Shown here piece by piece: positions 1,295 to 17,235 of a stretch of DNA of 64,000 bases. The stretch's first letter is position 1. Each line of letters opens with the position of its first letter. The DNA comes from Candidatus Nomurabacteria bacterium. Its GTDB lineage: Bacteria; Patescibacteriota; Patescibacteriia; Magasanikbacterales; UBA922. The notes under the pieces were generated by a model. It was given only the letters and a program-made list of their open reading frames with translations, had not been told where the DNA came from and did no database searches. A program made the position numbers and the translations under genes. Location: positions 81,118 to 145,117 of the forward strand of contig JACKFN010000003.1 in NCBI GenBank assembly GCA_020632445.1, in the 5' to 3' direction.

Positions 1295-1323
1295 TGTTAT
1301 TAAAAAAAGGAAGTATTCGATTT

Positions 1324-1875: not shown

Positions 1876-1901
1876 TAAAAAACATCGCTAAGCTTAGCGA
1901 T
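1876..1901 (-). terminator. Intrinsic terminator of the DUF2779-like gene: perfect 18-bp palindrome ATCGCTAAGCTTAGCGAT followed on the minus strand by GTTTTTT
   Basis: Palindrome at 1884-1901 and A6 run at 1877-1882 read directly. Confidence 0.5.
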
Positions 1902-1911
1902 GAATTTCTGA

Positions 1912-1938
1912 GCAGGACATCGTAGACGAAGTCGGAAC
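1912..1938 (+). repeat. Copy B of the imperfect 27-bp direct repeat GCAGGACATCGTAGACGAAGTCGGAAC
   Basis: See copy A; lies between the DUF2779 stop codon and its terminator hairpin. Confidence 0.6.
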
Positions 1939-1979
1939 CAGAATGAAGAAAGAACAGGGATACGTTACCATCCCTTGCC

Positions 1980-3482: not shown

Positions 3483-3522
3483 ATTCAAGTAATGTTCAAT
3501 CCTCTATGGAGCTCACTATTTT

Positions 3523-4440
3523 TTAAACCATTTTTTCAATACTCTCTTTCAGCTCATCCGCCTCTGGATACCACGTCAACGTATCCAGATCATGACGAAG
3601 AGCATAAAGGTCTAATCGTCTATTGAGGTTATTAAACGCAAACAATTCTGGGGCATACTCTCTAAACCAATCTATCAGATGAGCGTAATCTTCATCTTTT
3701 ACAAACTGCTCAGCATATTCAGACATATACTTGCTTGGTAATTCTTGCATTCGCTTCACAATATCAAGAACGTAGTCAATCGAAGACACTTCAATACGCT
3801 CGAAGTCTAACATTGCGACTATCTTTCCATCTTCAACCAAGACATTATCGAAATGGGTGTCCCAATGAACAAATGCCATTTTTGCTTCATCCAAGACGCT
3901 CTGATGTTTTTCCACAAAGTCTCTAACACCTAATATAACCTCATCTACGAGAGTGTTTTCTTGTTTTAATTTTTCTAGTGAAACGTTGATTTTATCTACG
4001 ACAATCTCACGCCAAGATTTAGAAATATCTACGTCAAACTTTTCAACAAAATCATTGTATGGAGTTTCGTTTATCGCTCTGAGATGGTTACACAGTTCTT
4101 TCACAATCTGCTTCCTCTCATGTTCATCCATTTTATGCCATACGTTATACAGGTTTTCACCTTTGATCCTCGGATATACAACGTAATGCTTATCGAAGAT
4201 ACTTTTTGACGTGTCGTAAATGATAACTTCTGGTACAGGAATAGATGGTGAGAACAGTTTATACAAATAGACTTCACGAGCCATTCTATATTCGTTTCCC
4301 TCATCATCACACACTTTAAGAATGTACTTATCATCTACCGAGTACACTTTGTTTGTAAAACCGACCTCTATTTTCTTTACAGAATTAGGCTCTACAAGAT
4401 CGTTTATTTCGAATATCTTTTTTACTTTTTCTATATCCAT
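3523..4440 (-). CDS. Aminoglycoside/choline-kinase-type phosphotransferase (APH family)
   Basis: 305 aa; HWDTHFDNVLV (catalytic H-x-D-x4-N) and downstream DFE motif. Confidence 0.6.
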   Translation of the reverse strand: MDIEKVKKIFEINDLVEPNSVKKIEVGFTNKVYSVDDKYILKVCDDEGNEYRMAREVYLYKLFSPSIPVPEVIIYDTSKSIFDKHYVVYPRIKGENLYNVWHKMDEHERKQIVKELCNHLRAINETPYNDFVEKFDVDISKSWREIVVDKINVSLEKLKQENTLVDEVILGVRDFVEKHQSVLDEAKMAFVHWDTHFDNVLVEDGKIVAMLDFERIEVSSIDYVLDIVKRMQELPSKYMSEYAEQFVKDEDYAHLIDWFREYAPELFAFNNLNRRLDLYALRHDLDTLTWYPEADELKESIEKMV

Positions 4441-4444
4441 ATTT

Positions 4445-4762
4445 TTATCTAACCCAGTTTGTAACTAGATAACTCGTAGCAGTTGCAACAATTAACGGCA
4501 CAAGGATATCCCACAAAATTTTTCTTTTCCAGTCATTTCTTTTATCTATCAAAAATTGTCTTTGTAAAAGTAATTGAGCTTTTTCCGTATCGAGATACTT
4601 TATTTCACCCTCCTCCATAATCCTATCTATATAATCTCCAGCAAAGGTTTCTTGTAAATTATGTATCCTTCTTGGTTTTTCTTCTTCTATTTCCAAAAGT
4701 CTAAGCTCAACTTTTTTAAGACTTTTTGGAATATCAGGTTTGTACTCTTCTTTTTTTGACAT
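4445..4762 (-). CDS. Hypothetical small protein with C-terminal transmembrane anchor; ATG at 4762 preferred over TTG 4768
   Basis: ORF with hydrophobic C-terminus WDILVPLIVATATSYLV; upstream sequence is identical to that of the DUF2779 gene. Confidence 0.35.
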   Translation of the reverse strand: MSKKEEYKPDIPKSLKKVELRLLEIEEEKPRRIHNLQETFAGDYIDRIMEEGEIKYLDTEKAQLLLQRQFLIDKRNDWKRKILWDILVPLIVATATSYLVTNWVR

Positions 4763-4909
4763 ATTCAAGTAATGTTCATTCCCCAGTACTACTCACTATT
4801 GTTTTCTTCTGGAAAATACTTATTGTTCAATTTAGTGAGCAGAACAAAGAAGTCTGTGATATTTTTCAATTCTTCCTCAGTGAAATGTTGGGGCTGTTCA
4901 ATATCCATG

Positions 4910-7198
4910 CTAGAAGCTCAATCTCTCCCAACCCTTTGCAGTCTTTTCATGCTTATAGTCTTTTCCTGTAAACACGTGTCCGCCAGTCTTATCAAAGACA
5001 ACAATACCACCGAACAATTTCTTTTTCTTGTTGTCTGCAATATAGGCTTGAAGAGCGTCGGATTTAGCCTTTGTTTCGCCACTAGAGGCGGTAAAACCAG
5101 ACTTTGTATCAAAGATGCCTATTGATCCATCTTTCATCTGTACGACGTAATCTGGATAAAATGCATGCTCCAGTTCATCGTCTGGATGGACGTAGGCAAC
5201 GGCAAAGTACATTTCTTTACTCTCACCATTTTTGTACCACCAAGACACCTTGTCACTTTCTGATAGAACCTTTTCAAATTCTTGTTCTGGATTTGATCTT
5301 GTCTTGGATAGATAGCACGGACTCATTACGTTATTTGCCACACTGACCTTTTCATAATTTTCGTTGTAGTAATCAACATTTGGGACATCCCATGTGCACT
5401 CTCGTCTTCGCTGTTTTGCTTTGAGCTCTTTTTTGCGTACCTCTCGGAAGCGTTCTTTTGCAGCCTCAATGATCTCCAAGAAAATCTTTTGATTAACATC
5501 TGAGCACACAACAACACGCTGAATTTCTGCACGACTTTTGTCCGCATAGCCGAGGTAGCTATCAAACCAATCGTAAAATGCTTGTTGTACTTTGGTATGA
5601 GAACGAACAGGGGCAAATGGCAGTGATGCTACTTTCGCAAACAGCTCAAACTTGTATTTCAAATCATCCATCGGTACAGAGAAGTCTACCAATTCACCCA
5701 CGACATCTCGAGCACCATCGACATTATCAATAACCGCATTTGAGATCACAGGCTTGGTAAGCTCCTCGAGGTATAACTCAAGGTCTTTGTCTGCTTTTTT
5801 GTAGGCTGTGTCACCGATATCTTTTGACGTAATGCCAAATCGCTTGTTAGCTTCTTCGATAAAGAGCTTACGGAAGGTAAGAGTAAGATCACCATAATCA
5901 ACACGGCTGAGGTAGACGGACGGTAGTTTAATTGGCTCGTAATTAGCCTCTCTATGAGATGGAGAAACATTGAAAAATGTCTGACTTCCTTCGTCCTGCT
6001 TGATCTTGATCTCTCCAAGATTTGTATAGACGTATGCACTGTTCAGTACATCTGACTCGTAGTGCTTTACTTCTGGCATACGGAGTATTCGACCGACTGT
6101 TTGAATTTCAAACGTCACGCTTTTGATATCTCGGAACATCACAAGAATTTGAGCACGAGGACAATCCCAACCAAGAGCAATTGCTTGCTTGAAGATGAGC
6201 ACTTCTACATGATTATCTACTCGCTCAATACCTTGCAGGTTTTCTTTTGTGTCTGAAAGCCAAATGGCAAGTCGTCCATTGTCTACGGTAATGTCATGTT
6301 TCTTCTTCAAATACTCCTGCACCATTTCGAGCTTTGACTTATCAAGAGCACTGGTCTTTTGTGCTTCACTCGGTAGCTGGATCAGTACAAGCGGATTTAC
6401 ATCGCTCTTTTCTTTTTTATAGGCTTCTTTCAGTTCGTCACGTTGTTTGATACTGGCATCTAGGATAGCCTCATCAGCCGAGTCACAAAGGTCTTTGTAC
6501 TCTCCAATCTCTTTATTGATAATTGTCTCAGACTTAATCATTCCTTCTGCTACTACGTCACCAAATGGAACAACGATAAACCCAGCATCACCAGTCGCCA
6601 TATCTTCTGCTGTAGGCAAGATAGATGGTGTAGCAGATACCTCAATGGTGAGCTTTGGAGCAATAACATCTTTCACCAATTCTTGTGACTGGTCTGACCA
6701 GTAGTGGTGGTGGCTCTCGTCTACAATGAGGATAATTTCTCGTCCCTTTTCTTTTGTATTTCGTACAAATGTAGGCAAGTTTCTATCTTGCTCGTTATCT
6801 CGCATGAGCACGTTTGACCATGCACCTTCACGGTTTTTCTTGGTGAGGCTATGCCAATTTACAAACACAATTTCGTTCTCTTCAAATGTAGAGCGTTGTA
6901 CTTCTTCAAGATACGAAAATGTATATCGACTTTCAGAAAGATAGCTCTCGAGCTTTTCTTTACTTTGTGAATGCAAATCATGTGAGCTAATCCAAATGAA
7001 GGCGAATTCTTTGCTTCCTACATATTCTCGAGAGAATTGCTGGAGAAAGTCTGCCATCATAATGGTCTTTCCTGATCCAGTCGGGGCTTTGAATACACAA
7101 ATCTTTTCTCCCTGTTTATCAAGGAGTTTTTTGGCTTGAAAGAGTAGCTTATCTACTGCTGTTTTTTGATATGTTTTTAATCTCATCATATTAGGCAA
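4910..7198 (-). CDS. res: Type III restriction enzyme Res subunit (SF2 helicase plus C-terminal PD-(D/E)xK-like nuclease)
   Basis: Walker A APTGSGKT, DEAH-like VDESHH, C-terminal PDYVVQMKDG; 8-bp overlap with the upstream mod gene. Confidence 0.75.
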   Translation of the reverse strand: MPNMMRLKTYQKTAVDKLLFQAKKLLDKQGEKICVFKAPTGSGKTIMMADFLQQFSREYVGSKEFAFIWISSHDLHSQSKEKLESYLSESRYTFSYLEEVQRSTFEENEIVFVNWHSLTKKNREGAWSNVLMRDNEQDRNLPTFVRNTKEKGREIILIVDESHHHYWSDQSQELVKDVIAPKLTIEVSATPSILPTAEDMATGDAGFIVVPFGDVVAEGMIKSETIINKEIGEYKDLCDSADEAILDASIKQRDELKEAYKKEKSDVNPLVLIQLPSEAQKTSALDKSKLEMVQEYLKKKHDITVDNGRLAIWLSDTKENLQGIERVDNHVEVLIFKQAIALGWDCPRAQILVMFRDIKSVTFEIQTVGRILRMPEVKHYESDVLNSAYVYTNLGEIKIKQDEGSQTFFNVSPSHREANYEPIKLPSVYLSRVDYGDLTLTFRKLFIEEANKRFGITSKDIGDTAYKKADKDLELYLEELTKPVISNAVIDNVDGARDVVGELVDFSVPMDDLKYKFELFAKVASLPFAPVRSHTKVQQAFYDWFDSYLGYADKSRAEIQRVVVCSDVNQKIFLEIIEAAKERFREVRKKELKAKQRRRECTWDVPNVDYYNENYEKVSVANNVMSPCYLSKTRSNPEQEFEKVLSESDKVSWWYKNGESKEMYFAVAYVHPDDELEHAFYPDYVVQMKDGSIGIFDTKSGFTASSGETKAKSDALQAYIADNKKKKLFGGIVVFDKTGGHVFTGKDYKHEKTAKGWERLSF

Positions 7199-8987
7199 AG
7201 AGTTTACGATAGACTTCTAAAATACTCTCTGGGATAGGACAAAGTGTATGATCTACCGAGAGATCAGCAAAGTCATCCTCGAACGTGTCGTGAGAGAGTG
7301 AAAAAATGTACAAGTGTGCAGGCATGTCTTTTGCATCCACCTTTTCTTTGAATTCCTTTACCGAATCAAGATCGAACAATATACCCGTAAGGTGATCATT
7401 GTTTTTATAGACTTTGTACTTTTTGTTGTCGTAGATTTTCTTGTACGTCCCTTCCTTTACACAGATCATCTCTGTAGACTTCTTCACGAGTTCTCTACGG
7501 GTATCGTCTGATACTTCCGATTGCTTTACGAATGTTGTTTTGAAATAACGTAGATTTGCAGGAATACCTTCTACATCTGCATAGCCTTCAATGACGTTTT
7601 CTACACGAGGGTATGTTACTTCCTCAGCAATACCGTTTTCGTTATTGGTACAAAGTATAAACTGACGATTGCCTCCATCTTGCTTGTTTAGTTCTAGAAC
7701 AGCGTGAGCAGTCGTTCCAGAACCTGCAAAAAAGTCTAGTATAGTAACTTTTTTATTTTTCTGTGCTTTCGAAACTTTCAACGTATCAATCACGGCGTAT
7801 AAAGACTTTGGATAATCAAAAACTTTCTCTCCACCAAACAAATTTTTTAGCATGTTCGTTCCATGAGAGGAAGCATCGTACAAAGAATCGACCCATATTG
7901 TTTTTGGTTTCCTTCCTGATTTTGTCCTATCTTTCAAATAGACTGAATATGATCCTTTTACTTTTTTCACTACAAATTCTCCCTCCGCAGCATTTCTTAA
8001 AATCTTCTCTCTATCTGACCATCTCCAGACCCTTCTTTTACCATTTGAGTCAATAGGCATGATCATGTTTATGTTCGGGTAAGACTTCCTAAAATCTTCA
8101 ATGGAACATTCTTCGATTGAGCCTTTTTTACCATACACAAACACTGTGTCCGTTTTGTATTGATCTTTGTAGCTTCCTATCCTCGATCCACCAACCCCTA
8201 CAATCTTTTTGTGCTTCGGTTCAAAAGCAATAAAAAATTCTGAATTAGGACGATCTTTTGGAACAGATAGTCCGCCACTTCGTCTAAATGGGAGTAGCCT
8301 ATAGTTCGAAGTTTCATCTTCAAGTCCAAAATTCTTTTTCTGTTCATCTGTAAGAGGTAAATCAAAAACCTTTGATTTACTACTTCTTCCGTACATCAGA
8401 ATATACTCATGAGATGTGGCAAAATTTTTGTTTGTAGTTCTACCACGTGGGTTAATTTCAATTGCCACTATACCCATTCTATTTTCTTCACCAAAAATTT
8501 CATCTAGCAATAGCCCAATTTGAAAAATTTCATAATCATCAATGGTAAGAAAAAGGACACCGTCTTCTTTAAGAAGATTTTTTGATGCCTCAATTCTTTT
8601 TGCCATCATGGATAGCCACTTCGAATGCCTATACGGATCATCACTGTCTACATAGTCGTTGTTGTATCTCCAAGAATTGTTACCAGTATTATACGGAGGA
8701 TCAATATAAATAACATCTACCTTTCCAGCGTGCGTGTAATTCAAAACAGACAACGCATGATAGTTGTCTCCCTCAATCAATAGATTGGTGACTCCATTTT
8801 CATCCTTTTCAAGGGTACGTTCAGCTACTTCTTCGAGTACAGGTAGATGTTCTTTGCATTTTTCTACTACATCCTCGGGCTTATCTTCCCAGACCAGCCC
8901 ATATTTTTTTCTGCTTTGTAATTGTTCAACGAGCTCGAGAAGCTCTTCTTTGTTCATGTTTTTGTAATTCTTCATAGTAATGTTCAT
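7191..8987 (-). CDS. mod: Type III R-M Mod subunit (beta-class N6-adenine DNA methyltransferase)
   Basis: DPPY motif IV (IYIDPPYNTGN) precedes the AdoMet motif I FFAGSGTTAHAV; mod then res order is typical of Type III systems. Confidence 0.8.
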   Translation of the reverse strand: MNITMKNYKNMNKEELLELVEQLQSRKKYGLVWEDKPEDVVEKCKEHLPVLEEVAERTLEKDENGVTNLLIEGDNYHALSVLNYTHAGKVDVIYIDPPYNTGNNSWRYNNDYVDSDDPYRHSKWLSMMAKRIEASKNLLKEDGVLFLTIDDYEIFQIGLLLDEIFGEENRMGIVAIEINPRGRTTNKNFATSHEYILMYGRSSKSKVFDLPLTDEQKKNFGLEDETSNYRLLPFRRSGGLSVPKDRPNSEFFIAFEPKHKKIVGVGGSRIGSYKDQYKTDTVFVYGKKGSIEECSIEDFRKSYPNINMIMPIDSNGKRRVWRWSDREKILRNAAEGEFVVKKVKGSYSVYLKDRTKSGRKPKTIWVDSLYDASSHGTNMLKNLFGGEKVFDYPKSLYAVIDTLKVSKAQKNKKVTILDFFAGSGTTAHAVLELNKQDGGNRQFILCTNNENGIAEEVTYPRVENVIEGYADVEGIPANLRYFKTTFVKQSEVSDDTRRELVKKSTEMICVKEGTYKKIYDNKKYKVYKNNDHLTGILFDLDSVKEFKEKVDAKDMPAHLYIFSLSHDTFEDDFADLSVDHTLCPIPESILEVYRKLFA

Positions 8988-8995
8988 TGTTTCGG

Positions 8996-9181
8996 TTACG
9001 ACTGATCTTCAATGAAAGCAAGAATGTCTTCTTTCTTGTATCTTCGATCTCCTCGAGAGCCAAACCGTATGGCTTTGAGTTTTCCCTCGTTATCCCACTT
9101 TCGTAGTGTATTGGGATGACAGTTCAATATCTCACATGCCTCCTTTAGCGTGAGCAATTGAGGCATTTTTTGCATGTCCAT
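8996..9181 (-). CDS. Excisionase/AlpA-type helix-turn-helix DNA-binding protein
   Basis: 61 aa; LTLKEACEILNCHPNTLRKWDNEGKL matches the excisionase-family HTH pattern. Confidence 0.55.
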   Translation of the reverse strand: MDMQKMPQLLTLKEACEILNCHPNTLRKWDNEGKLKAIRFGSRGDRRYKKEDILAFIEDQS

Positions 9182-9262
9182 AGCTCTTGATTTTGTACTT
9201 AATATAAGTTACCATTAGTATACACGAAATTACTATTACTCTCAAATTAGCATGACAATTAT

Positions 9263-10411
9263 ATGGACAGAATGCCAAACTTTTTGCGGAAGCTGTCGCC
9301 AGCAATGCTGAACGCCTACTGCAAACATAAAAATATAGACTTTACTGTCTCTCCCAAAGAGAAGGATACGGAAAAGATCAAACAGAGCTTCATAGAATGT
9401 TGGGAAAAGCTGGAATATACGGAACGCAATGAGGTTGAAATAGACTTTGGTGCGACCGAGGAGCTCATGTCTAACACAGGATGTGGGCTGCTCCATGATC
9501 TTGCCGTACAAAAGAAAAAAACAATCCCAAAAGAATGGGATAACATGACTACGGCTGACAAGGCTTTGTGGTTTTACCTAAACGATCCTGAAACATTTCG
9601 AGAAGGAGCACTAAGATATGTAGTAGAAAACGCACAAGGTTGGATGACATTCCGAGCTGATGCAGAGTTACCTACAGCAGATTTGGATGCCCGTGTTGGA
9701 AAACTGCAACAACAAATGCAGAAGTATCTCTATGCAAAAGAGAGACGAGGGGCACTTTGTAAAATAGACATGATACAGAAAGACAACTATGTCTGTTTTG
9801 TTGCAAATCCTCAGAATTACCCAAAACGAGAGCCCGAATATGATGAGAAAACAAAGGAGCTCAACAAGGCAACCAGCATAAAACCAATCTATCAACTTTA
9901 CTTCCTATATCGATCGGACGACCAAACATTGAGCATTAAATCTCGATATAGAAAAAACAAGAAGCAAGATTTGGCAAATATGTTTGGTAATCATGTGCTC
10001 AACGTACCCCTTCTGGGAGATAAAATCATCTCGTACAATCTTGATCTGTTGTTAGACCCAGAATTCGAAATGAAAAAGCCACTTGGTCTCGAAAAAGTAG
10101 TACTCAAAAGAGTGCGTCTCAAATCTCGCAGGAACTTCAAACATTCTATCCAGTTAGACCTTGGTACATTAGACGATGGTATAGAACCTCTACGAGAACA
10201 ATTACGTTTGTATAACATAAACCCAACATTCTTTGAGGTGGCTACAGCTACCATGACGTTTTACTTCCAACGACCGAAAGACCCCCGATACAAAAATCAG
10301 AGGTTCGACGTAACTGTTGAGCTGTCAAAACCTCACAGATGTACCTTCAAAAATCGTGATCTGGATGATAAAGCAAGAACAGTATTACATGATTGGGGTA
10401 TTGTGAATTGA
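9263..10411 (+). CDS. Hypothetical protein of unknown function (382 aa), first gene of a two-gene cassette
   Basis: Long ORF with no recognisable motifs; a 2-bp gap to the next gene suggests translational coupling. Confidence 0.5.
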   Translation: MDRMPNFLRKLSPAMLNAYCKHKNIDFTVSPKEKDTEKIKQSFIECWEKLEYTERNEVEIDFGATEELMSNTGCGLLHDLAVQKKKTIPKEWDNMTTADKALWFYLNDPETFREGALRYVVENAQGWMTFRADAELPTADLDARVGKLQQQMQKYLYAKERRGALCKIDMIQKDNYVCFVANPQNYPKREPEYDEKTKELNKATSIKPIYQLYFLYRSDDQTLSIKSRYRKNKKQDLANMFGNHVLNVPLLGDKIISYNLDLLLDPEFEMKKPLGLEKVVLKRVRLKSRRNFKHSIQLDLGTLDDGIEPLREQLRLYNINPTFFEVATATMTFYFQRPKDPRYKNQRFDVTVELSKPHRCTFKNRDLDDKARTVLHDWGIVN

Positions 10412-10412
10412 T

Positions 10413-11351
10413 ATGGTTTTTTCATCCGCAATATCTCTCTTGCACCACAATGAACGTATCCCTCGAGAAGAAATTGAAAAGTATATAAGCAAGGGCATAA
10501 TTGCACATTTGCGAAAGCAGGGTGTATTAAAAGAGAGCGACACACTGTCACACATAACTTGCCAAGAGTGCAACGAATGTCTGTGTGAGGTGGAATCTTT
10601 TGATGGTGGCGTTCGAGCATATTGTGAAACATATAACAGTTTTTACGATCTACCAGAGTCATATTCGCAACCCTCATACAAATTCGACACAAACGGCTTC
10701 CTATCTCTTCTCAAAGAACAATTCGATATCAAAGGTTCGACTGAAAAAATAAGCACCAATTTTTTTAACATCGGTTATCTCAGTACAGATCATACACACA
10801 TATTTTTTTCCTTTGATGATGACCAAAACAACCACTCGCAAGATATAGACCGAATCCTTGGATCAAACGGGAAAGCACTTATTGTTGTACCATTTTCTGC
10901 TTCGCAGTATACGTATACGGGAAACCGTGTTCGACCAGTAAGCTTGGACAGTGTTGGAAAATTTACTTCTCGTGCAATATCTTGGGATAAGGAAGAGTTT
11001 GAGTACATTGTAGAAAGTACCTTTCGTAGTGTTGAGTTTACTCTGCATGGAGAGCTCAAACACAACGGGGTAATTTTACGAGACTATGCCTCGGGGACGA
11101 ACCAATATGCTTTCCTCAAGACATTGTTTGATAGCTTCGGTAGAACGGTTACAAATGAAACGCTTTTTGATAATGCAAAAAAGACAGTACCAAACTTTAG
11201 ATATACCAGTCCGTCATCTTTCGCAGAGAAAACAAAGTCTAACATCTGCAATAAAGACAAGGAAACCAAAGATATTGTGGAAAAGATCATTGTTCCTGCG
11301 AGTGCAGCGGGATCAAAAAAAGGCTACAGAATGACAAATCCTCAAGCATAA
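10413..11351 (+). CDS. Hypothetical protein (312 aa) with an N-terminal Cys cluster (CQECNECLC...C), second gene of the cassette
   Basis: ORF; only a putative zinc-ribbon-like Cys cluster is recognisable. Confidence 0.5.
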   Translation: MVFSSAISLLHHNERIPREEIEKYISKGIIAHLRKQGVLKESDTLSHITCQECNECLCEVESFDGGVRAYCETYNSFYDLPESYSQPSYKFDTNGFLSLLKEQFDIKGSTEKISTNFFNIGYLSTDHTHIFFSFDDDQNNHSQDIDRILGSNGKALIVVPFSASQYTYTGNRVRPVSLDSVGKFTSRAISWDKEEFEYIVESTFRSVEFTLHGELKHNGVILRDYASGTNQYAFLKTLFDSFGRTVTNETLFDNAKKTVPNFRYTSPSSFAEKTKSNICNKDKETKDIVEKIIVPASAAGSKKGYRMTNPQA

Positions 11352-11352
11352 T

Positions 11353-11392
11353 GTCAGCAATCCGTCAGCGATTGTCAGCAAAATGTCCGCAA
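11353..11392 (+). promoter_or_regulatory. Iteron-like array: four direct repeats GTC(A/C)GC(A/G)A starting at 11353, 11364, 11374 and 11385 (10-11 bp phasing)
   Basis: Read directly in the sequence; begins 2 bp after the stop of the upstream gene. Confidence 0.55.
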
Positions 11393-11411
11393 CAACCTAC
11401 CTTAGAATAGA

Positions 11412-11435
11412 ATCACGGTAACCCGTGATTTTTCG
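11412..11435 (+). terminator. Hairpin ATCACGG-TAAC-CCGTGAT followed by TTTTCG; terminator-like or operator inverted repeat
   Basis: Perfect 7-bp inverted repeat plus T-run; the motif aaCCGTGAT recurs at 11455-11463. Confidence 0.4.
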
Positions 11436-11488
11436 TTGCAACGTCAAACAAAGGAAACCGTGATGTTTATCAATTAACATTACGACTT

Positions 11489-11764
11489 ATGACTAAAGAA
11501 CATTCCTACGTTCCCTTTCTTGAGGACTACCCAAATCCATTTTCAAGCTACGACATTGGCATGTGTGCGGGCTTGGTAAGCGTTGGCTACCAGCTTCTAC
11601 ACATAGACAAGTCAAAGGGAGCAAAAGCACTTTTCCTCTTTGAAAACAGCGATGAGATTGTTGAATCCGCTCAACAATACTGGCGAGGAGAATTGCAGGT
11701 CGATGCACTTGCGTACTTCAACGCACTCAAGAATATCAAGAACCAGTTGTACTCACAGCGATAG
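11489..11764 (+). CDS. Hypothetical small protein (91 aa)
   Basis: ORF only; lies within the element between the iteron array and the primase. Confidence 0.3.
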   Translation: MTKEHSYVPFLEDYPNPFSSYDIGMCAGLVSVGYQLLHIDKSKGAKALFLFENSDEIVESAQQYWRGELQVDALAYFNALKNIKNQLYSQR

Positions 11765-11933
11765 ATATGCTCTCTGACGAAATGGTCGAGAAATTTCGAG
11801 AGCTGTATCGCAAACGCTATGGCGAAGACATCTCAAAAGAAGATGCACTCATGCAAGGTACAGCTCTCCTGCGGATGATGAAAGTGATCTATCGACCACT
11901 CCCAAAAGGAGAAAAAAAACATACTCAATAAAC

Positions 11934-12170
11934 ATGAACATTATGAAATCTATTGAAAGACGGTTTAACCGAATCTCAAAAAAATACACTGGCTGGAGCT
12001 CATATCTCTGCTTTGTAGAAGCGATAACAGGACAATACTTTCGTCGTCGGACGATCCAGTATTGGTTCAATAAGCTGGTAGACAAAGACGACTACAGCAA
12101 AGGTGACAAACAACAAATCATTAACTTCCTCGAGCATCTATCAAATGAGCGTGAGGAAAGCACGAAATAA
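11934..12170 (+). CDS. Hypothetical small protein (78 aa); starts ATGAACATTATG
   Basis: ORF; carries the recurrent start-site motif. Confidence 0.3.
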   Translation: MNIMKSIERRFNRISKKYTGWSSYLCFVEAITGQYFRRRTIQYWFNKLVDKDDYSKGDKQQIINFLEHLSNEREESTK

Positions 12171-12248
12171 GGCGTAAATTGCCCTCTGCGTGCTTTTCTT
12201 GAGCCCAGAGGGCATAGATGCCATGACGATTAACATTAACCAAATACT

Positions 12249-14438
12249 ATGGAATTTCAGACAATTACCATTAGCCAATATCTCAAAGAAAAAGGGATGG
12301 AATTTGTGGAGCGAAATGGTGAGATAGTAACACGATGCGTATTCAATGACTGCGACGCTGATAGCAGAGCAAACGAGGCTCACCTATATTTTGATGCAGA
12401 GACAGGACAGTACGATTGCAAAAAATGTGGTGAACAAGGAAACATAATTACACTCGCAAGACATCTTGGTGACACACTTGAAGATGTAGCAAAAGAAAAA
12501 ACACAGCCCAGTAAAAAACGGAAGAAAAACGGTATAACCATTACGGACGTTGAAAGATGTCACAAAGCTCTTCCAGATCGAATACGAGAGTACCTGCACG
12601 ATCGAGGAATTACAGACGAGCTTATCTCGCACTTCAAACTAGGCTGGGGTGAATTTTATGGTTCACAATGGATCACCATACCTATCAAAGATATTGATGG
12701 GAATTTTTCGTTCTTCAAATTACGGCGTGACCCTGACCAAGAAACCGAAGACGGAAAATATCGGTTCTACCCTGCTGGAAGTAAAGCAACGCTCTTTGGC
12801 TGGGATATGCTCAAAGGTAACACGGACATGATCGTGATCTGTGAGGGAGAATTCGATGCAATACTTCTCACCAGCCTTGGTATCCCCACACTAACATCTA
12901 CCGCAGGGGCAGGAACATTCAAAGACGAGTGGATACCGCATTTGAAAAACTTGAAAAACATTCACATTTGCTTTGACAAAGATGACGCTGGAGCGAAAGG
13001 AGTAGAAAAGCTGGTAGCACAGCTCGATACGCATTTGAGTAAGACCGCAATACACCAGATAACATTGCCAGATCGAATGACTGACGGAAAGGACGTTACT
13101 GATTACATAACCAAGCACAACGGAAACCCAGATGAACTACTGAAAGAATGCTCAAAACAAGTTGCAGGAAGACAGCCCATTGATACGTCTAAATTCAAAC
13201 CACTCACCTCAGATGATGTTGTTCGAGTGCTCGGGCTGACAATCAAGAAAGATGAAGAGAACAAGCTCATCACGTTTCTTTGTGCATTGTCTGCATATAC
13301 TGAGCAATCCCAATTCAATCTGAGCTTCAATGCTCCGTCTTCCACGGGAAAAAGTTTTATCCCTATGGAAGTATCGACACTCTTTCCTACAGAAGACGTA
13401 ATGAAGCTCGGTGACTGCTCACCAAAGGCGTTTTTTCACGAACAAGGAGAATACGACAAAGAGAGCAACACGATGCTTGTTGATCTATCGAGAAAGATAC
13501 TTATATTCCTTGATCAGCCACACAATAGCTTGCTCGAACGTCTTCGTTCACTCTTATCTCACGATCAGAAAGAGATGATCTCAAAGATTACAGACAAGAA
13601 CAGAAAAGGTGGAAACCAGACAAAGACAGTTATCCTTCGTGGGTATCCTGCTGTTATCTTTTGTAGTGCTGGATTGAAGATAGACGAACAAGAAAGTACT
13701 CGGTTTATTCTTCTCTCCCCACAAACGAGCCAAGAGAAACTGCGGTTTTCAATCCAAGAAAAGATCAAGAAGGAGTCTGACTACGAAACGTATCGAGATG
13801 ATCTCAATGCTAATCCAGAACGAGCACTACTCAAAGAGCGAATTGAGGCAATCAAAGATGAGGCGATTGATGAAATACGCATTGAAAACCCAGAATTGAT
13901 AGAACAAGAATTTTTCTCTAAACGTGCAAAGCTGAAGCCTCGTCACCAACGTGACATTGGTCGGCTGATGGGGCTTACAAAGATATTTGCTCTCCTGAAT
14001 GTCTGGTTTCGAGAACGTGAAGGCTCAACAATCGTGGCAACAAAAGAAGACTTTGAAGAAGCACTCAAGCTCTGGAACAAGATATCCGAAAGCCAAGAAT
14101 ACAATCTTCCTCCATACGTGTATGAGCTATACAAGGATGTTATTGTCCCAGCATACGATGAAAAAAATGCGTTTGGGCTTGCTGCTGATCCTTCAGGAAT
14201 TACAAGAAAAGAGATACTGCAAAAGCACTATGAGGTATATGGACGTATGGTACAGGACTGGCAAATGAGACAGCAGATCATACCGATGCTAGAAACGGCA
14301 GGTCTCATATCACAAGACCCTGATCCTGATGACAAACGGCGTATTCTTATTACCCCTACAGACAAACTCACTACTTCCACAGACTCTGAAAAAGATATAG
14401 TGAGCGACACTGGGGACGTAGGTACAATTTCCCTGTAA
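12249..14438 (+). CDS. Phage/plasmid-type DNA primase: CHC2 zinc finger plus TOPRIM plus C-terminal P-loop domain
   Basis: CVFNDCDADSR...CKKCG zinc finger; TOPRIM MIVICEGEFDAILL; Walker-A-like APSSTGKSF. Confidence 0.75.
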   Translation: MEFQTITISQYLKEKGMEFVERNGEIVTRCVFNDCDADSRANEAHLYFDAETGQYDCKKCGEQGNIITLARHLGDTLEDVAKEKTQPSKKRKKNGITITDVERCHKALPDRIREYLHDRGITDELISHFKLGWGEFYGSQWITIPIKDIDGNFSFFKLRRDPDQETEDGKYRFYPAGSKATLFGWDMLKGNTDMIVICEGEFDAILLTSLGIPTLTSTAGAGTFKDEWIPHLKNLKNIHICFDKDDAGAKGVEKLVAQLDTHLSKTAIHQITLPDRMTDGKDVTDYITKHNGNPDELLKECSKQVAGRQPIDTSKFKPLTSDDVVRVLGLTIKKDEENKLITFLCALSAYTEQSQFNLSFNAPSSTGKSFIPMEVSTLFPTEDVMKLGDCSPKAFFHEQGEYDKESNTMLVDLSRKILIFLDQPHNSLLERLRSLLSHDQKEMISKITDKNRKGGNQTKTVILRGYPAVIFCSAGLKIDEQESTRFILLSPQTSQEKLRFSIQEKIKKESDYETYRDDLNANPERALLKERIEAIKDEAIDEIRIENPELIEQEFFSKRAKLKPRHQRDIGRLMGLTKIFALLNVWFREREGSTIVATKEDFEEALKLWNKISESQEYNLPPYVYELYKDVIVPAYDEKNAFGLAADPSGITRKEILQKHYEVYGRMVQDWQMRQQIIPMLETAGLISQDPDPDDKRRILITPTDKLTTSTDSEKDIVSDTGDVGTISL

Positions 14439-14541
14439 AAACAAGTAATTAACTGGACAAGGTTCTGTAAATACTCCCTAGGGAAAGGAGCTTATTCTCT
14501 AATGATTTCGGTAAATTCAGAACCTGATAAAACCTTACATT

Positions 14542-15171
14542 ATGGGAAGATACTACTGGAACAAAAAAGACGAAGCAGATGACTGCAAAAAAATAGAAAT
14601 ATGGACACTCAAGAAATGGGGCTATCTTGATACGTCCTTTCGTTCGGGAACAATCACATGGACGCACGGATACAGCGGAAACAAAAGTAGTGTGGGTATA
14701 CAAAGTGTTATGTGGAAGGACGAGGGGCAGTATATCCGCATACACTATACCCAGACAGACTGGCGTACCGAGGAAAAGACAGACTTCGACTACCAAATAC
14801 CGCTCACCACAACAGAATGTCACTTCGGAGGTATACGCTACTGGTTTCGCTGTCCGTGGTACAAAAATGGTGTCTATTGTGGCAGACGTGTTGGTGTGAT
14901 CTACAAAAACGGAGATTACTTTGCCTGTAGACACTGTTACGAGCTGTCATACGCCAGCAGAAACGAGAACCGAAAACATGCGTTGTCTGGACTCGGCAGA
15001 ATGCTTGATCTGGAACGAAAAATAGAAAAGCTCCAAGAAGAAATAACCACTCCATTCTACAATGGACGACCAACAAGAAAATATCGAAGGCTTATAGAGC
15101 TAAAAAGGCAATACTATGGCTTTGATGCAGAAAAAGTCTTGAGAGATATGGATAGAATGCTTGGTTCGTGA
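14542..15171 (+). CDS. Hypothetical zinc-ribbon protein (209 aa)
   Basis: Cys cluster CHFGGIRYWFRCPWYKNGVYCGRRV...CRHC; located immediately upstream of the recombinase. Confidence 0.4.
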   Translation: MGRYYWNKKDEADDCKKIEIWTLKKWGYLDTSFRSGTITWTHGYSGNKSSVGIQSVMWKDEGQYIRIHYTQTDWRTEEKTDFDYQIPLTTTECHFGGIRYWFRCPWYKNGVYCGRRVGVIYKNGDYFACRHCYELSYASRNENRKHALSGLGRMLDLERKIEKLQEEITTPFYNGRPTRKYRRLIELKRQYYGFDAEKVLRDMDRMLGS

Positions 15172-15313
15172 TATAATTACATCGCTTACCCAATGTACAA
15201 TTTTTGTCAAAAGATTTTTTATTTGTTGCCAGTAAGGGGCAGTCCTCCAACAAATATGTCTTTTGGCATGTGCGTTGGGTAAGCAGGGCTGTCCCTTTTT
15301 GTAACCAAAAAAT

Positions 15314-16918
15314 ATGGATTACCATGACAATAAACAATACAAATACTTTCTCTATGCGAGAAAATCATCGGAAAGCGAAGACCGACAAGTCCAATCAATC
15401 GATGATCAAACTGATCGGCTAAAAGAGCTGGCACAAACGCTCGGTATTACCATAAAACAGATATTTACTGAGGCAAAATCAGCGAAGAAGCCAAACAATA
15501 GACCAGTCTTCACAGAAATGATGGAACGGATCGAAGCTGGAGAAGCTGATGGGATACTATGTTGGCAGATCAATCGTCTTTCACGCAATCCAATTGATAG
15601 TGCTCAGATACAGTGGCTACTACAGAAAAAAGTGCTCAAGTCTATCCAAACCATTGATCGTGAATACAGACCAGAAGACAATGTGCTTCTCTTCAATGTT
15701 GAAAGTGGAATGGCGAATCAGTTTATCCTTGATCTCAGCAAGAATGTAAAACGTGGAAACTTGTGCAAGGTAAAAAATGGGTGGAAACCCGGTCTTGCAC
15801 CTATTGGATATTTGAATGAACTGGAAAACCATACCATAATCCCTGACCCTGAACGATTTGATCTCATACGTAGAGCATGGGACTACATGCTGACAGGAAA
15901 CTATACCGTTCCCCAAATACACAAGATGCTCAATGACGACTGGGGCTTCCGAACAAAGAAAAGAAAACGATCTGGAGGTAAACCAGTAGCACTGAGCAGT
16001 ATGTACAAGATATTCAGCAATATCTTCTATGCTGGTGTACTTCTTTACGATGGCAAGGAGTATGCAGGAAAACACAAAACAATGATCACGCTTGAAGAGT
16101 ATGACCAAGTGCAGGTTATTCTCGGAAAAAAAGGAAAACCAAGACCAAAGACGTATACCTTTGCCTTTACTGGCATGATTAGATGTGGTGAGTGTGGCTG
16201 TAGTATCACTGCGGAAAAGAAGAAAAAGTTTATCAAGAGCGAGCAAGAACTTCGCTACTACACGTACTATCACTGCACTCGTAGAAAACGAGAAGTAAAT
16301 TGCTCGCAAAGAAAATCGATCAGTGAGACAACCTTAGAAAACCTGATATTAGAAGAAGTCGGCAAGCTGACCATTCTTCCAGAGTTTTTTGATTGGGCTA
16401 TGGAAGCACTGAACCAAGATAATGATAATGAGATTGTGGATCGAACCAAGATATACGAAATGCAACACCAGTCTCTGACGAAAACACAAAAAGAGCTCGA
16501 TAATCTCACCAAAATGAGATACAGAGAGCTGATTGACGATGAAATGTTTATCAAAGAGAGCGAGGAGCTCAAAGCAAAAATCAAAAAGCTACAGCAAGAA
16601 CTTCGGGAAACTGAGAAACGTGCAGAAGATTGGCTCGAGCTCACAGAAAAGGCATTTCACTTTGCCAGATACGCACGAGAACACTTTGATGGCGGTAGTA
16701 TTGAGGAAAAAAAGGAAGTACTGAGCGGATTAGGTTCGAACTTTTTGCTAAAAGACCAAAAACTAGATATTTCCCTTCACAGTTACTTTGAACCGATAAA
16801 AAACGGGTATAAAACGCTTGAAGCTGAGTATCTAGCGTTAGAACCAAACAAATTTGCCTCAACAAAAGTAAAAACAGAGGCTTTGACCTCTGTCATTACA
16901 CGTTGGCAGGCGAGGTAG
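15314..16918 (+). CDS. Large serine recombinase (resolvase catalytic domain, recombinase domain, zinc ribbon, coiled coil); putative integrase of the element
   Basis: YARKSSESEDRQVQSIDDQ catalytic region; CGECGCS...HCTRRKREVNC zinc ribbon; 3' end overlaps the tRNA-Trp 3' end. Confidence 0.8.
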   Translation: MDYHDNKQYKYFLYARKSSESEDRQVQSIDDQTDRLKELAQTLGITIKQIFTEAKSAKKPNNRPVFTEMMERIEAGEADGILCWQINRLSRNPIDSAQIQWLLQKKVLKSIQTIDREYRPEDNVLLFNVESGMANQFILDLSKNVKRGNLCKVKNGWKPGLAPIGYLNELENHTIIPDPERFDLIRRAWDYMLTGNYTVPQIHKMLNDDWGFRTKKRKRSGGKPVALSSMYKIFSNIFYAGVLLYDGKEYAGKHKTMITLEEYDQVQVILGKKGKPRPKTYTFAFTGMIRCGECGCSITAEKKKKFIKSEQELRYYTYYHCTRRKREVNCSQRKSISETTLENLILEEVGKLTILPEFFDWAMEALNQDNDNEIVDRTKIYEMQHQSLTKTQKELDNLTKMRYRELIDDEMFIKESEELKAKIKKLQQELRETEKRAEDWLELTEKAFHFARYAREHFDGGSIEEKKEVLSGLGSNFLLKDQKLDISLHSYFEPIKNGYKTLEAEYLALEPNKFASTKVKTEALTSVITRWQAR

Positions 16919-16977
16919 GAATCGAACCCACGCAATTGGTTTTGGAGACCAATGTACTACCACTATACGACTCGCCC
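16905..16977 (-). tRNA. tRNA-Trp (anticodon CCA), 73 nt with encoded CCA
   Basis: The reverse complement folds as a cloverleaf: acceptor stem GGGCGAG/CTCGCCT, anticodon loop CTCCAAA, T-loop GGTTCGATTCC. Confidence 0.75.
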
Positions 16978-17064
16978 ATAGACTTGGACATTGTACTAAA
17001 ATTTGCACCAACTTTCAACCCCATACACCAAAAGCAGCTTTCGCTGCTTTATGGTCATCACACA

Positions 17065-17235
17065 TTATTTGGTTTCTTCGTACACCGTGTGTGCGTTGGC
17101 AATAGGGTTGTACTTTTTGAGACTCAATCTATCCTTGTGAGTTTTCTTGTTCTTCTTGGTATAGATGATGTGCCCCTTTCCCTTGCCATTGTCGTCGCCC
17201 TTTGATTTGAGCTTGATAAGATTATCTTGAGACAT
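17065..17235 (-). CDS. rpmG: 50S ribosomal protein L33 (56 aa; absent from the ORF track because it is under 60 aa)
   Basis: Hand translation gives MSQDNLIKLKSKGDDNGKGKGHIIYTKKNKKTHKDRLSLKKYNPIANAHTVYEETK, which matches the L33 pattern. Confidence 0.75.
   Translation of the reverse strand: MSQDNLIKLKSKGDDNGKGKGHIIYTKKNKKTHKDRLSLKKYNPIANAHTVYEETK

What the first reader, a model, noticed from the sequence alone, without database searches (positions are those of the whole stretch)
15314..17235. Integrase-tRNA junction: large serine recombinase gene overlaps the 3' end of tRNA-Trp, breaking the usual rpmG-tRNATrp-secE-nusG neighbourhood
tRNA-Trp (16905-16977, minus strand) and rpmG (17065-17235, minus strand, missing from the ORF track) are normally followed by secE-nusG. 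Here a large serine recombinase ends 14 bp inside the tRNA 3' end and is followed by about 15 kb of element-type cargo (primase, zinc-ribbon protein, excisionase-like HTH, Type III R-M, APH). This is the signature of a tRNA-targeting integrative element with attR at the tRNA.
Basis: partly seen in the sequence, partly recalled or inferred. Interest (0 to 1): 0.7.

Follow-up and report, generated by a model that had tools for sequence, protein, structure and literature searches.

The report
Serine-integrase element inserted in tRNA-Trp
A 15-kb mobile element sits in the end of the tRNA-Trp gene, put there by a serine-type integrase whose own gene runs across the insertion point; over 500 species of ultra-small (CPR) bacteria carry relatives, and serine integrases were not thought to target tRNA genes.

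Summary
A 534-aa large serine recombinase (LSR, 15314-16918 +) ends 15 nt inside an antisense tRNA-Trp (16904-16977), next to rpmG.

It is the right end (attR) of a 14,994-bp integrated element. The left end (attL, 1914/1915) is not a tRNA repeat. It is the orphaned last 24 codons of the LSR gene. Only GCAGG is shared between the two ends.

A relative with an 80% identical LSR exists as a free 13,308-bp circle carrying the uninterrupted gene.

In 76 species-level genomes, 63 homologues end in an antisense tRNA of nine amino-acid types. In 60 of them the near-invariant Trp codon TGG is the antisense of the tRNA's CCA.

Inferred mechanism:
- attP lies inside the integrase ORF, with crossover at tRNA nt 72-71.
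- The element re-supplies G73-CCA and a covarying terminator hairpin.
- The element arm carries a T-loop look-alike 5 bp further out than the real T-loop. This is the known attP/attB zinc-domain offset, and would explain switching between tRNAs.

An outer, degenerate second attL (1270/1271) marks a remnant of an earlier insertion.

I found no published description. No same-species empty site, no reads and no biochemistry were available.

The parts
15314..16918 (+). Large serine recombinase gene in its integrated form (534 aa). The last 5 codons (W-Q-A-R-stop) are read from the antisense of the tRNA-Trp 3' end.
   Evidence: Pfam Resolvase, Recombinase and Zn_ribbon_recom. Invariant R16, S18, R88 and R91 in 42 homologues. 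Closest solved structure is the SPbeta integrase, E=7.6e-11.
16904..16977 (-). tRNA-Trp(CCA). Nt 73-76 (G73 and CCA, 16904-16907) are inferred to be element-derived; the rest is host-derived.
   Evidence: junction analysis.
16867..16932 (.). attR. It comprises the P arm (16867-16907, inside the LSR ORF), the predicted crossover dinucleotide AG (16908-16909 = tRNA nt 72-71) and the B' arm (16910-16932 = tRNA acceptor 3' strand and T arm, with antisense T-loop TCGAAC at 16922-16927).
   Evidence: Comparison with attP of the circular relative and with attL. Dyad-symmetry peak at position 5.5 from the T of TGG. T-loop geometry.
16864..16894 (-). Terminator-like hairpin (16873-16894) followed by a T-run, 10 nt downstream of the tRNA CCA end in the tRNA's sense. 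It is encoded antisense within LSR codons K-T-E-A-L-T-S-V.
   Evidence: Terminator scan hit with 9 pairs. Family covariation: 80.7% paired against 27-51% in slid controls, score 0.471, 0/500 shuffles. G-U pairs are enriched on the minus strand, 12% against 3%.
1883..1940 (.). attL (inner, attL1). The left arm is 1883-1913 and contains the minus-strand terminator-like hairpin 1883-1902. The crossover AG is at 1914-1915. The P' arm is 1916-1940, with the T-loop look-alike TCGGAAC at 1932-1938.
   Evidence: the repeat finder family D2, motif scan, junction sequences, terminator scan.
1913..1987 (+). Orphaned 3' tail of the LSR ORF (QDIVDEVGTRMKKEQGYVTIPCLT*). Excision would rejoin it to codon 532 and give a 556-aa protein.
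   Evidence: Same motif ([IV]V.DV[GR]T...GY.YIP.L) as the uninterrupted tails of the circular relative and of other attP-form copies.
1914..16909 (.). The integrated element. The predicted circle is 14,994 bp, measured between the two central dinucleotides.
   Evidence: attL and attR as above. Gene order is colinear with the 13,308-bp circular relative L002/L003.
1268..1913 (.). A 644-bp integrase-less remnant bounded on the left by a second, degenerate attL-like copy. Its core CAGG is at 1269-1272, its central AG at 1270-1271, and its tail QDIVEEVGTVIKKRKYSIFT* at 1269-1331. It carries a PNPOx-like ORF (1324-1803, minus). Read as a relic of an earlier insertion at the same tRNA (tandem accretion).
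   Evidence: 40-nt repeat, 80% identical to attL1. Parallel cases: two attLs in L028, and a second LSR 3' end abutting attL in L020.
1980..8987 (-). Cargo: DUF2779/Cas4-like nuclease (1980-3488), APH-family kinase (3523-4440), a 107-aa ORF (4445-4768), type III restriction Res (4910-7198) and Mod (7191-8987).
   Evidence: Pfam, PADLOC MTase_III 2.2e-87 and REase_III 6.6e-20.
8996..9181 (-). HTH_17 / MerR-like 61-aa protein. It is a candidate regulator or directionality factor; this was not tested.
   Evidence: Pfam 4.2e-15, PHROG excisionase families. Conserved in L002 and L018 at 87-92%.
9263..15171 (+). Conserved core module upstream of the LSR: 382-aa and 312-aa unknowns, DUF5659 (11489-11764), p54 (11767-11931), p78 (11934-12170), DnaG/Toprim-type primase (12249-14438) and p209 (14542-15171).
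   Evidence: Pfam and PHROGs. tblastn over the 82 sequences searched (80 loci, the window and L002): p54 in 62, DUF5659 in 54, primase in 44, p209 in 38.
17065..17235 (-). rpmG (L33), host gene upstream of the tRNA. A promoter-like site for the tRNA lies at 17018-16990 on the minus strand.

Best explanation
Window 1914-16909 is a 15-kb integrative, plasmid-like element with a primase, small conserved proteins and a type III restriction-modification cargo. It has no virion or conjugation genes. It is inserted into the 3' end of tRNA-Trp by its own large serine recombinase.

The element's attachment site (attP) lies inside the 3' end of the recombinase ORF. Recombination at a 2-bp crossover (AG, tRNA nt 72-71) has three consequences:
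(a) The last 24 codons of the ORF are left behind at attL, and the gene now finishes by reading the tRNA antisense (W-Q-A-R-stop).
(b) tRNA nt 73-76 are replaced by element DNA. The near-invariant Trp codon TGG is the antisense of CCA.
(c) A hairpin plus T-run encoded antisense in codons KTEALTSV is placed 10 nt downstream of the tRNA as a replacement terminator.

The arm on the far side of attP carries a T-loop look-alike (TCGGAAC) 5 bp further from the crossover than the true T-loop (TCGAAC) in the tRNA arm. This is the offset that distinguishes attP from attB for the zinc-ribbon domain of serine integrases. The enzyme therefore probably reads the universal T-loop, and a few bases around the crossover set which tRNA is used.

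An outer, degenerate attL at 1270 marks the remnant of an earlier element; newcomers appear to insert at the tRNA-proximal junction.

Shown: the anatomy, the circular relative, the family-wide tRNA association, hairpin covariation and attP dyad symmetry. Inferred: the exact crossover, T-loop recognition, terminator function, the functional difference between the two integrase isoforms, and the accretion order.
For: Domains and the tRNA overlap.

Ends of the element:
- No long repeat of the tRNA exists.
- Two copies of the ORF-tail motif lie at 1913 and 1269.

Free circular relative:
- P0004 (80% identical LSR) lies on a 13,308-bp circle. It was recovered as exact rotations with 30-nt terminal overlaps in 4 sequencing runs.
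- It has the same gene order and an uninterrupted ORF reading ...RWQA-IVMDVGT....

Spread:
- The LSR of a Magasanikbacteria genome is 83% identical and sits at the same tRNA-Trp, yet the flanking Wzy_C proteins are only 44% identical. This indicates horizontal spread.
- At least 524 species genomes encode relatives.
- 63 of 76 loci have an antisense tRNA at the ORF end (Trp 8, His 27, Asn 11, Gln 8, Ser 3, Ile 2, Asp 2, Lys 1, Glu 1). In 60 of them A76 is the first base of codon 531, which is TGG in 73 of 78 sequences.
- 7 further loci show a T-arm motif in register.
- By regex, 94 of the 120 best protein homologues have tRNA-type tails and 5 have attP-type tails. Reading the other 21 by eye brings this to about 111 and 8.

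Attachment sites:
- attP dyad symmetry peaks sharply at position 5.5: 81 matches against a background of 22-54.
- The P' motif sits at half-site bp 18-24 and the B' T-loop at bp 13-19. This fits the published zinc-domain windows of 16-24 (attP) and 11-19 (attB), a 5-bp shift (PMC3783163; sequences).
- attL was found by the same rule in 6 other loci, giving element sizes of 5.9-11 kb.

Hairpin.

Tandem structures.
Against: - No empty site from the same or a closely related strain was found. The 93%-L33 relative is also occupied. The unoccupied relative L103 is too distant for its flank to align.
- No read data were available, so current excision is unproven.
- The circle belongs to a related element, not to this one.
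- The crossover position rests on symmetry and on shared bases (GCAGG) only.
- With that centre, the central dinucleotide would be palindromic (GC or TA) in 5 of 63 loci, including both tRNA-Ile loci. This is unorthodox for serine integrases.
- Only the right-hand arms (P', B') show the T-loop-like motif. The left arms do not.
- The P' motif is also constrained by coding (V-G/R-T).
- Five attP-form copies sit in long chromosomal contigs with no tRNA within 10 kb.
- Canonical serine integrases do not use attR as a target, so the accretion route is unorthodox.
Confidence: 0.8

Rival explanations
1. Chance read-through. The recombinase is a resolvase or invertase acting locally, and its ORF merely happens to run into the neighbouring tRNA before meeting a stop codon.
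For: The overlap is only 15 nt, and no long direct repeat flanks the region.
Against: The protein has the full LSR architecture. The same register occurs in 60 of 76 independent species loci on nine tRNA types. The displaced ORF tail lies 15 kb away. A circular relative carries the joined ORF.
Confidence: 0.02
2. The element is a prophage or a phage satellite (P4- or PICI-like: integrase, primase, AlpA-type HTH and defence cargo) that depends on a helper phage. It is not a plasmid-like integrative element.
For: The size is 6-15 kb. The primase matches PHROG primase families, and an HTH_17/excisionase-like gene is present. Defence cargo sits in a variable slot. These resemble satellite layouts (own knowledge).
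Against: No capsid, terminase, portal or packaging-redirection hits in PHROGs or Pfam for any ORF tested. The integrase type and att logic do not depend on this question.
Confidence: 0.2
3. The hairpin and the T-loop look-alike are by-products of protein-coding constraint on a conserved C-terminal peptide. The integrase would recognise other bases, and the tRNA would terminate by other means.
For: Both motifs lie in conserved codons (KTEALTSV; V-G/R-T). The left half-sites lack the motif. Some tRNA-His-type members have a poor hairpin.
Against: The hairpin arms covary with many double changes (111 cells, 0/500 shuffles). The wobble pairs are strand-specific to the tRNA sense, which a peptide constraint does not predict. 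The 5-bp offset and the half-site windows match the published LSR rule exactly.
Confidence: 0.25
4. The true host junction is the inner attL (1914), and the 1268-1913 segment is ordinary host DNA that happens to carry an old att-like scar from an unrelated event. Alternatively, the whole of 1270-16909 moves as one composite unit.
For: The left arm of attL1 looks like a native tRNA 3' flank, with a terminator hairpin and T-run on the tRNA strand. The outer tail is degenerate and lacks the GY.YIP motif.
Against: Double attLs recur in L028. In L020 the sequence left of attL is the 3' end of another LSR gene. This pattern fits serial insertion at the tRNA-proximal junction.
Confidence: 0.3

Closest known systems
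Phage-type large serine integrases (phiC31, Bxb1, A118/LI, TP901-1, SPbeta SprA)
   Same: Same three-domain architecture. Short non-repeated core with a 2-bp crossover. Quasi-palindromic attP. Zinc-domain motif 5 bp closer to the centre in attB than in attP (PMC3783163). The closest solved structure is the SPbeta integrase.
   Different: - Only distant sequence similarity (E=7.6e-11).
- The target is the 3' end of tRNA genes rather than protein-coding or intergenic sites.
- attP lies inside the integrase ORF.
- The tRNA T-loop appears to serve as the zinc-domain motif.
- The carrier is a small primase-encoding element, not a phage.
Tyrosine-integrase genomic islands in tRNA/tmRNA genes (P4-type; the Islander class)
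   Same: They integrate in the 3' part of a tRNA gene and regenerate it from element sequence. The integrase gene lies next to the tRNA. Tandem arrays occur.
   Different: - The enzyme family and chemistry are different.
- Those islands leave a displaced tRNA fragment as a direct repeat of tens of bp; here only 5 bp are shared.
[quoted passage not shown]
Dehalococcoides ssrA genomic islands (DsiB, a CcrB-like serine recombinase)
   Same: A serine recombinase of about 540 aa is associated with integration at the 3' end of a small structured-RNA gene (tmRNA) (PMC3146451).
   Different: - The target is tmRNA, not tRNA, and is described with ssrA direct repeats at both ends.
- It needs a second small recombinase (DsiA).
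- It is confined to one genus.
- No ORF-embedded attP was reported.
Myxophage Mx8 intP/attP, and SSV1-type integrases whose attP lies within the int gene
   Same: Integration changes or splits the integrase coding sequence, so the free and integrated forms encode different proteins (own knowledge; the Mx8 papers are not in the searchable library and appear only as a reference).
   Different: Those are tyrosine recombinases. Here the same trick occurs in a serine integrase, and the new C-terminus is read from an antisense tRNA.
CIME/ICE accretion in streptococci (integrase-less cis-mobilisable remnants in tandem with an active element)
   Same: An integrase-less remnant bounded by an att site lies in tandem with an intact element at the same target (window 1268-1913; L028; L020).
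   Different: That system uses tyrosine integrases with long repeats (own knowledge). A mechanism by which a serine integrase could reuse an occupied site has not been shown.

Membership tests
Large serine recombinase (serine integrase) | N-terminal resolvase-type catalytic domain with the conserved Ser/Arg pocket | tested here: met
   PF00239 E=8.7e-20. R16, S18, R88 and R91 are invariant in 42 homologues.
Large serine recombinase (serine integrase) | C-terminal Recombinase domain and zinc-ribbon domain | tested here: met
   PF07508 E=4e-6 and PF13408 E=6.4e-12. Aligns to the SPbeta integrase over residues 14-438.
Large serine recombinase (serine integrase) | Coiled-coil motif inserted in the zinc domain | not tested
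   Residues ~360-450 are the likely region; no structure was predicted.
Large serine recombinase (serine integrase) | att sites share only a short core around a 2-bp crossover, with no long flanking direct repeats | tested here: met
   attL and attR share GCAGG only. In other loci the identity likewise ends at position 7-8.
Large serine recombinase (serine integrase) | attP is an imperfect inverted repeat about the crossover | tested here: met
   Symmetry scan over 13 natural or reconstructed attP sites peaks at a single centre.
Large serine recombinase (serine integrase) | Zinc-domain motif 5 bp closer to the centre in attB than in attP | tested here: inconclusive
   Met for the right-hand arms (TT[ACG]GAAC at bp 18-24 in P' against the T-loop at bp 13-19 in B'). 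No such motif is visible in the left-hand arms.
Large serine recombinase (serine integrase) | Non-palindromic central dinucleotide | tested here: inconclusive
   AG here, and non-palindromic in 58 of 63 loci. GC or TA in 5, including both tRNA-Ile loci.
Large serine recombinase (serine integrase) | Catalyses attP x attB integration, and excision with a directionality factor | not testable with these tools
   Indirect evidence only: a circular relative with an intact attP. The directionality factor is unidentified (candidates: p54, HTH_17, p209).
tRNA-integrating genomic island (Islander definition) | Intact tRNA gene at one end and a displaced tRNA fragment at the other | tested here: not met
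   No k-mer of 14 nt or more, or extended repeat, from 16840-17010 occurs elsewhere in the window.
tRNA-integrating genomic island (Islander definition) | Tyrosine-family integrase | tested here: not met
   The only recombinase is of the serine family. No Phage_integrase hit in any ORF scanned.
tRNA-integrating genomic island (Islander definition) | Element sequence regenerates a functional tRNA | tested here: met
   The tRNA scores 63.9 bits over its full length. Nt 73-76 come from the element side of the junction.
Prophage | Virion structural and packaging genes | tested here: not met
   The only PHROG hits are to primase and excisionase/HTH families, apart from a weak small-terminase-subunit match of the 61-aa HTH protein. 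Pfam shows none.
Integrative conjugative element | Relaxase, coupling protein and type IV secretion genes | tested here: not met
   None among the ORFs of 1268-16918 in Pfam or PHROGs. The 382-, 312- and 209-aa proteins remain unassigned.

The most novel reading that the evidence does not exclude
A phylum-wide family of serine integrases has turned the universal tRNA T-loop into its zinc-domain recognition motif and carries a decoy T-loop in attP. Which tRNA is hit would be set by a handful of bases around the crossover, which are also codons 532-534 of the enzyme. Because attP is inside the ORF, integration itself would switch the enzyme from a 556-aa 'free' isoform to a truncated 'resident' isoform. 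That would be a built-in directionality or copy-control device, and a natural template for retargetable integrases that land in tRNA genes of any organism.
Probability: 0.4. Interest if true: 0.85.

Novelty: new variant of a known kind. Interest (0 to 1): 0.74.

Why it matters
Targeting of tRNA genes has been treated as the preserve of tyrosine integrases. Tools that find tRNA islands (Islander) look for tyrosine integrases and for a duplicated tRNA fragment, so they would miss this class.

Here a serine integrase family does the same job in a different way:
- a 2-bp crossover in the acceptor stem;
- CCA and a terminator supplied from within its own coding sequence;
- an apparent T-loop decoy in attP.

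The family is abundant. At least 524 species genomes carry it, and thousands of proteins match. It occurs mainly in Patescibacteria (CPR), whose mobile elements are poorly known, and it carries restriction-modification and other defence cargo between hosts as distant as 44% identity in a flanking gene.

Serine integrases are the enzymes of choice for large-cargo genome engineering. A clade that recognises a universally conserved tRNA feature, and has switched among nine tRNA types, would be an attractive starting point for retargeting.

Tried and rejected
- Direct and inverted repeat searches for a second tRNA-Trp 3' segment found none. A 30-nt, 70% inverted match at 696-725 was judged to be chance.
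- Exact-protein look-ups of the LSR, L33 and Wzy_C returned only the same strain, or nothing.
- Wzy_C relatives are at most 45% identical, and the two examined are not syntenic with rpmG-tRNA-Trp, so they gave no empty site.
- L33 relatives: the 93% relative is also occupied, and one of its contigs stops exactly at the tRNA 3' end, a weak hint of a branch in the assembly. The 73% relative L103/L104 has an unoccupied tRNA-Trp with encoded CCA, followed by DUF6941 and a cation ATPase rather than secE-nusG. The other L33 relatives have a different rpmG context.
- I suspected that the left arm of the outer attL (AAATATTC...TTG) matched L103's native flank. Local alignment scored at shuffle level, so I dropped the idea.
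- I looked for a second LSR or a tRNA downstream of the five attP-form chromosomal copies, to explain them as distal members of tandem arrays. None lies within 10 kb.
- Nine literature searches found no description of tRNA-targeting large serine integrases or of this CPR element family. The library lacks most subscription journals.
Full report
OBSERVATION

ARAGORN finds one tRNA in the window, tRNA-Trp(CCA), at 16904-16977 on the minus strand. Rfam agrees with 63.9 bits. rpmG (L33) lies at 17065-17235 on the minus strand.

ORF 15314-16918 (+) encodes a 534-aa protein with Resolvase, Recombinase and Zn_ribbon_recom domains, which makes it a large serine recombinase (LSR). Its stop codon TAG is at 16916-16918. 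Its last codons, CGT TGG CAG GCG AGG TAG, are the reverse complement of the tRNA's ...CCUCGCCUG-CCA end. The overlap is 15 nt.

To the left lie the following genes:
- a DnaG/Toprim primase and several small conserved ORFs;
- an HTH_17 protein;
- a type III restriction-modification pair;
- an APH-family kinase;
- a DUF2779/Cas4-like nuclease.

The source is a 147,920-bp contig labelled Candidatus Nomurabacteria.

FINDING THE OTHER END

No copy of the tRNA 3' segment exists anywhere in the window. This is what a serine integrase predicts, because these enzymes need only a 2-bp crossover.

The clue came from the protein family. The 120 best homologues (62-100% identity) have C-termini that read like antisense tRNA...RW(Q/L/H/G).. 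followed by (E/D)SN(P/L/Q), which is the translation of the antisense T arm GGATTCGAACC. A minority share a different tail...RWQA-IVMDVGT....GY.YIP.L.

One of this minority, P0004 (80% identical), lies on a 13,338-nt contig recovered in four sequencing runs. Where two full-length copies are held they are exact rotations with a 30-nt terminal overlap. This is a free 13,308-bp circle with the same gene order as window 9-17 kb. It therefore shows the uninterrupted attP.

Scanning the window for that tail motif gave two hits. They coincide with the 40-nt repeat family D2 reported by the repeat finder:
- 1913-1987, QDIVDEVGTRMKKEQGYVTIPCLT*
- 1269-1331, QDIVEEVGTVIKKRKYSIFT*

The junction sequences line up as follows:

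| Site | Sequence |
|---|---|
| attR | ACACGT TGG CAGG CGAGGTAGGAATCGAACCC |
| attL1 | TTTCTGAG CAGG ACATCGTAGACGAAGTCGGAACC |
| attP of the circle | ACACGG TGG CAGG CCATCGTAATGGACGTCGGAACT |

Only GCAGG is common to attL1 and attR. The element is therefore 1914-16909, giving a 14,994-bp circle. Excision would rebuild a 556-aa integrase.

FAMILY-WIDE TEST

A scan of one genome per species with an alignment of 42 homologues (A1) found at least 524 genomes encoding relatives, and 80 loci were fetched.

Of the 76 loci in which codon 531 is on the contig:
- 63 have an ARAGORN-called antisense tRNA at the ORF end. The types are His 27, Asn 11, Trp 8, Gln 8, Ser 3, Ile 2, Asp 2, Lys 1 and Glu 1.
- In 60 of these the tRNA's A76 is exactly the first base of codon 531. 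That codon is TGG in 73 of 78 sequences (the 76 loci plus the window and L002).
- Seven more have a T-arm motif in register but no called tRNA. Patescibacterial tRNA-Asn and tRNA-Asp genes often carry group I introns that hide them from standard tools (PMC13011429, listed).
- Five have attP-type tails.

The near-invariant tryptophan is thus the antisense of CCA.

The LSR in a Magasanikbacteria genome is 83% identical and sits at the same tRNA-Trp next to rpmG and Wzy_C. Yet the Wzy_C proteins are only 44% identical. The element has therefore moved between distant hosts to the same site.

WHERE THE CROSSOVER IS

Thirteen attP sequences were used: six natural, and seven rebuilt from attR and attL pairs. 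They show a single sharp dyad-symmetry peak between positions 5 and 6, counted from the T of TGG. The peak is 81 matches against 22-54 elsewhere.

In the window this is AG at 16908-16909 and at 1914-1915, corresponding to tRNA nt 72-71. Identity between attL and attR always stops at position 7-8.

This means the element supplies G73 and CCA, and everything downstream of them.

T-LOOP LOOK-ALIKE

With that centre, the tRNA's antisense T-loop ((A/T)T(C/T)GAAC) occupies half-site bp 13-19 of the host arm B'.

All 15 element arms P' carry TT(A/C/G)GAAC (TCGGAAC in this element and in the circle L002), apart from one GCAC variant in L063, at bp 18-24. These bases are codons V-(G/R)-T.

The LI integrase work places the zinc-ribbon-domain motif at bp 16-24 in attP and at bp 11-19 in attB, a 5-bp inward shift (PMC3783163). 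The fit is exact.

I infer that the enzyme reads the T-loop. That would explain how the family has moved among nine tRNA types.

Two caveats apply. The left arms show no such motif. With this centre, the central dinucleotide is palindromic in 5 of 63 loci.

REPLACEMENT TERMINATOR

Ten nt downstream of the CCA, in the tRNA's sense, lies a hairpin (16873-16894) followed by a T-run. The terminator scan picks it up independently. It is encoded antisense in the conserved codons K-T-E-A-L-T-S-V.

Across 74 homologues:
- the 8 pairs are formed in 80.7% of cells, against 27-51% with slid partners;
- the covariation score is 0.471, against at most 0.135;
- 111 cells show double changes;
- 0 of 500 shuffles reach these values.

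Non-Watson-Crick pairs are G-U on the tRNA strand (12%) rather than on the integrase strand (3%). This points to an RNA hairpin in the tRNA transcript. Terminator function itself is inferred.

SECOND attL AND TANDEM INSERTIONS

The outer copy at 1269 bounds a 644-bp integrase-less segment carrying one PNPOx-like ORF. Its tail has lost the GY.YIP motif.

The same pattern recurs elsewhere. L028 has two attLs 2.6 kb apart. In L020 the sequence left of attL is the 3' end of another, divergent LSR gene reading across the junction.

I read these as serial insertions at the tRNA-proximal junction, with decay of the older element. The route is unorthodox for serine integrases and is not shown.

WHAT KIND OF ELEMENT

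There are no virion or conjugation genes.

The conserved core is DUF5659-p54-(p78)-(primase)-(p209)-LSR. Variable defence cargo sits on the other strand: type III restriction-modification here, type I/IIG in the circle, and MmeI with ResIII in the Magasanikbacteria copy.

A plasmid-like integrative element is the best fit. A phage satellite cannot be excluded.

secE and nusG are not in the window.

The closest rpmG relative (93% identical) is also occupied. A more distant relative, L103/L104, has tRNA-Thr-Tyr-Thr-rpmG-tRNA-Trp with an unoccupied site (...AAAAACT TGG CAGG GGCGGTAGG...). It is followed by DUF6941 and a cation ATPase, not by secE-nusG. Its flank does not align with the window.

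KNOWN OR NEW

The nearest precedent is the CcrB-like DsiB of the Dehalococcoides ssrA islands, which targets a tmRNA gene and leaves direct repeats (PMC3146451). An attP embedded in the int gene is known for tyrosine integrases such as Mx8 and SSV1 (own knowledge).

Nine literature searches found no description of this family.

I rate it a new variant of a known kind. The anatomy and the family-wide association are solid. The recognition and isoform-switch mechanisms are inferences awaiting the assays listed under next steps.

Noticed in passing
window 34649-37669 (minus strand): A 1006-aa gene with eight MopE-type Cu-binding repeats and an FGE-sulfatase domain has 68-70% GC in a ~41% GC genome. 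A related Magasanikbacteria locus (L017 5685-8876) has a MopE protein at 51-56% GC in a 35-41% background. The GC excess therefore seems to travel with the gene family, but it is extreme here. Possible causes are recent transfer from a high-GC donor or an assembly chimera.
   Followed up: partly
L063, L077, L091, L092, L093 (LSR at ~10001-11600 in each): Five homologues with uninterrupted attP-type tails sit inside long contigs (64-759 kb). Each has at least 10 kb on both sides, and no tRNA or second LSR lies within 10 kb downstream. How an element with an intact attP comes to be chromosomal is unexplained; a very long tandem array or another integration route are possibilities.
   Followed up: partly
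L042, L050 (tRNA-Ile loci) and L092 attP (around 11555-11575): For the tRNA-Ile clade the predicted central dinucleotide is the palindrome GC. The L092 attP is a perfect 16-bp palindrome, CGGTGGTG|CACCACCG. Serine integrases normally rely on a non-palindromic dinucleotide for orientation.
   Followed up: no
L026, L034, L046, L086 (just right of the LSR stop): A T-arm and acceptor sequence sits in the right register next to the LSR, but ARAGORN calls no tRNA. These may be intron-containing tRNA genes of the kind recently reported for Patescibacteria.
   Followed up: no
window 3480-3524 and 4760-4804: A 45-nt direct repeat (80% identical) covers the start codon and upstream region of two cargo genes on the minus strand: DUF2779 (1980-3488) and the 107-aa ORF (4445-4768). 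Both proteins begin MNM. It may be a shared promoter/RBS cassette or a cargo-module boundary.
   Followed up: no
L099 (1141-nt contig, SRR29965071): In a close relative (L33 93% identical) one assembly contig ends exactly at the 3' end of tRNA-Trp, while sister contigs continue into the LSR. This is a possible assembly-graph branch caused by occupied and unoccupied (or differently occupied) sites in the population.
   Followed up: no
window 1-64000: From 17.4 kb to 64 kb nearly all long ORFs are on the plus strand and GC skew is positive. Skew is negative over 1-9 kb, where the element's cargo is on the minus strand, and the cumulative-skew minimum falls near 11-12 kb inside the element. The skew switch reflects gene orientation in the insert and is not evidence of an origin.
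   Followed up: no
window 1956-1975 (minus strand): A second terminator-like hairpin (AGGGATGGTAACGTATCCCT followed by a T-rich tail) lies within the orphaned LSR tail, at codons QGYVTIP. It sits about 5 nt downstream of the stop codon (1980-1982) of the convergent DUF2779 gene. The hairpin is not conserved in the circular relative.
   Followed up: partly
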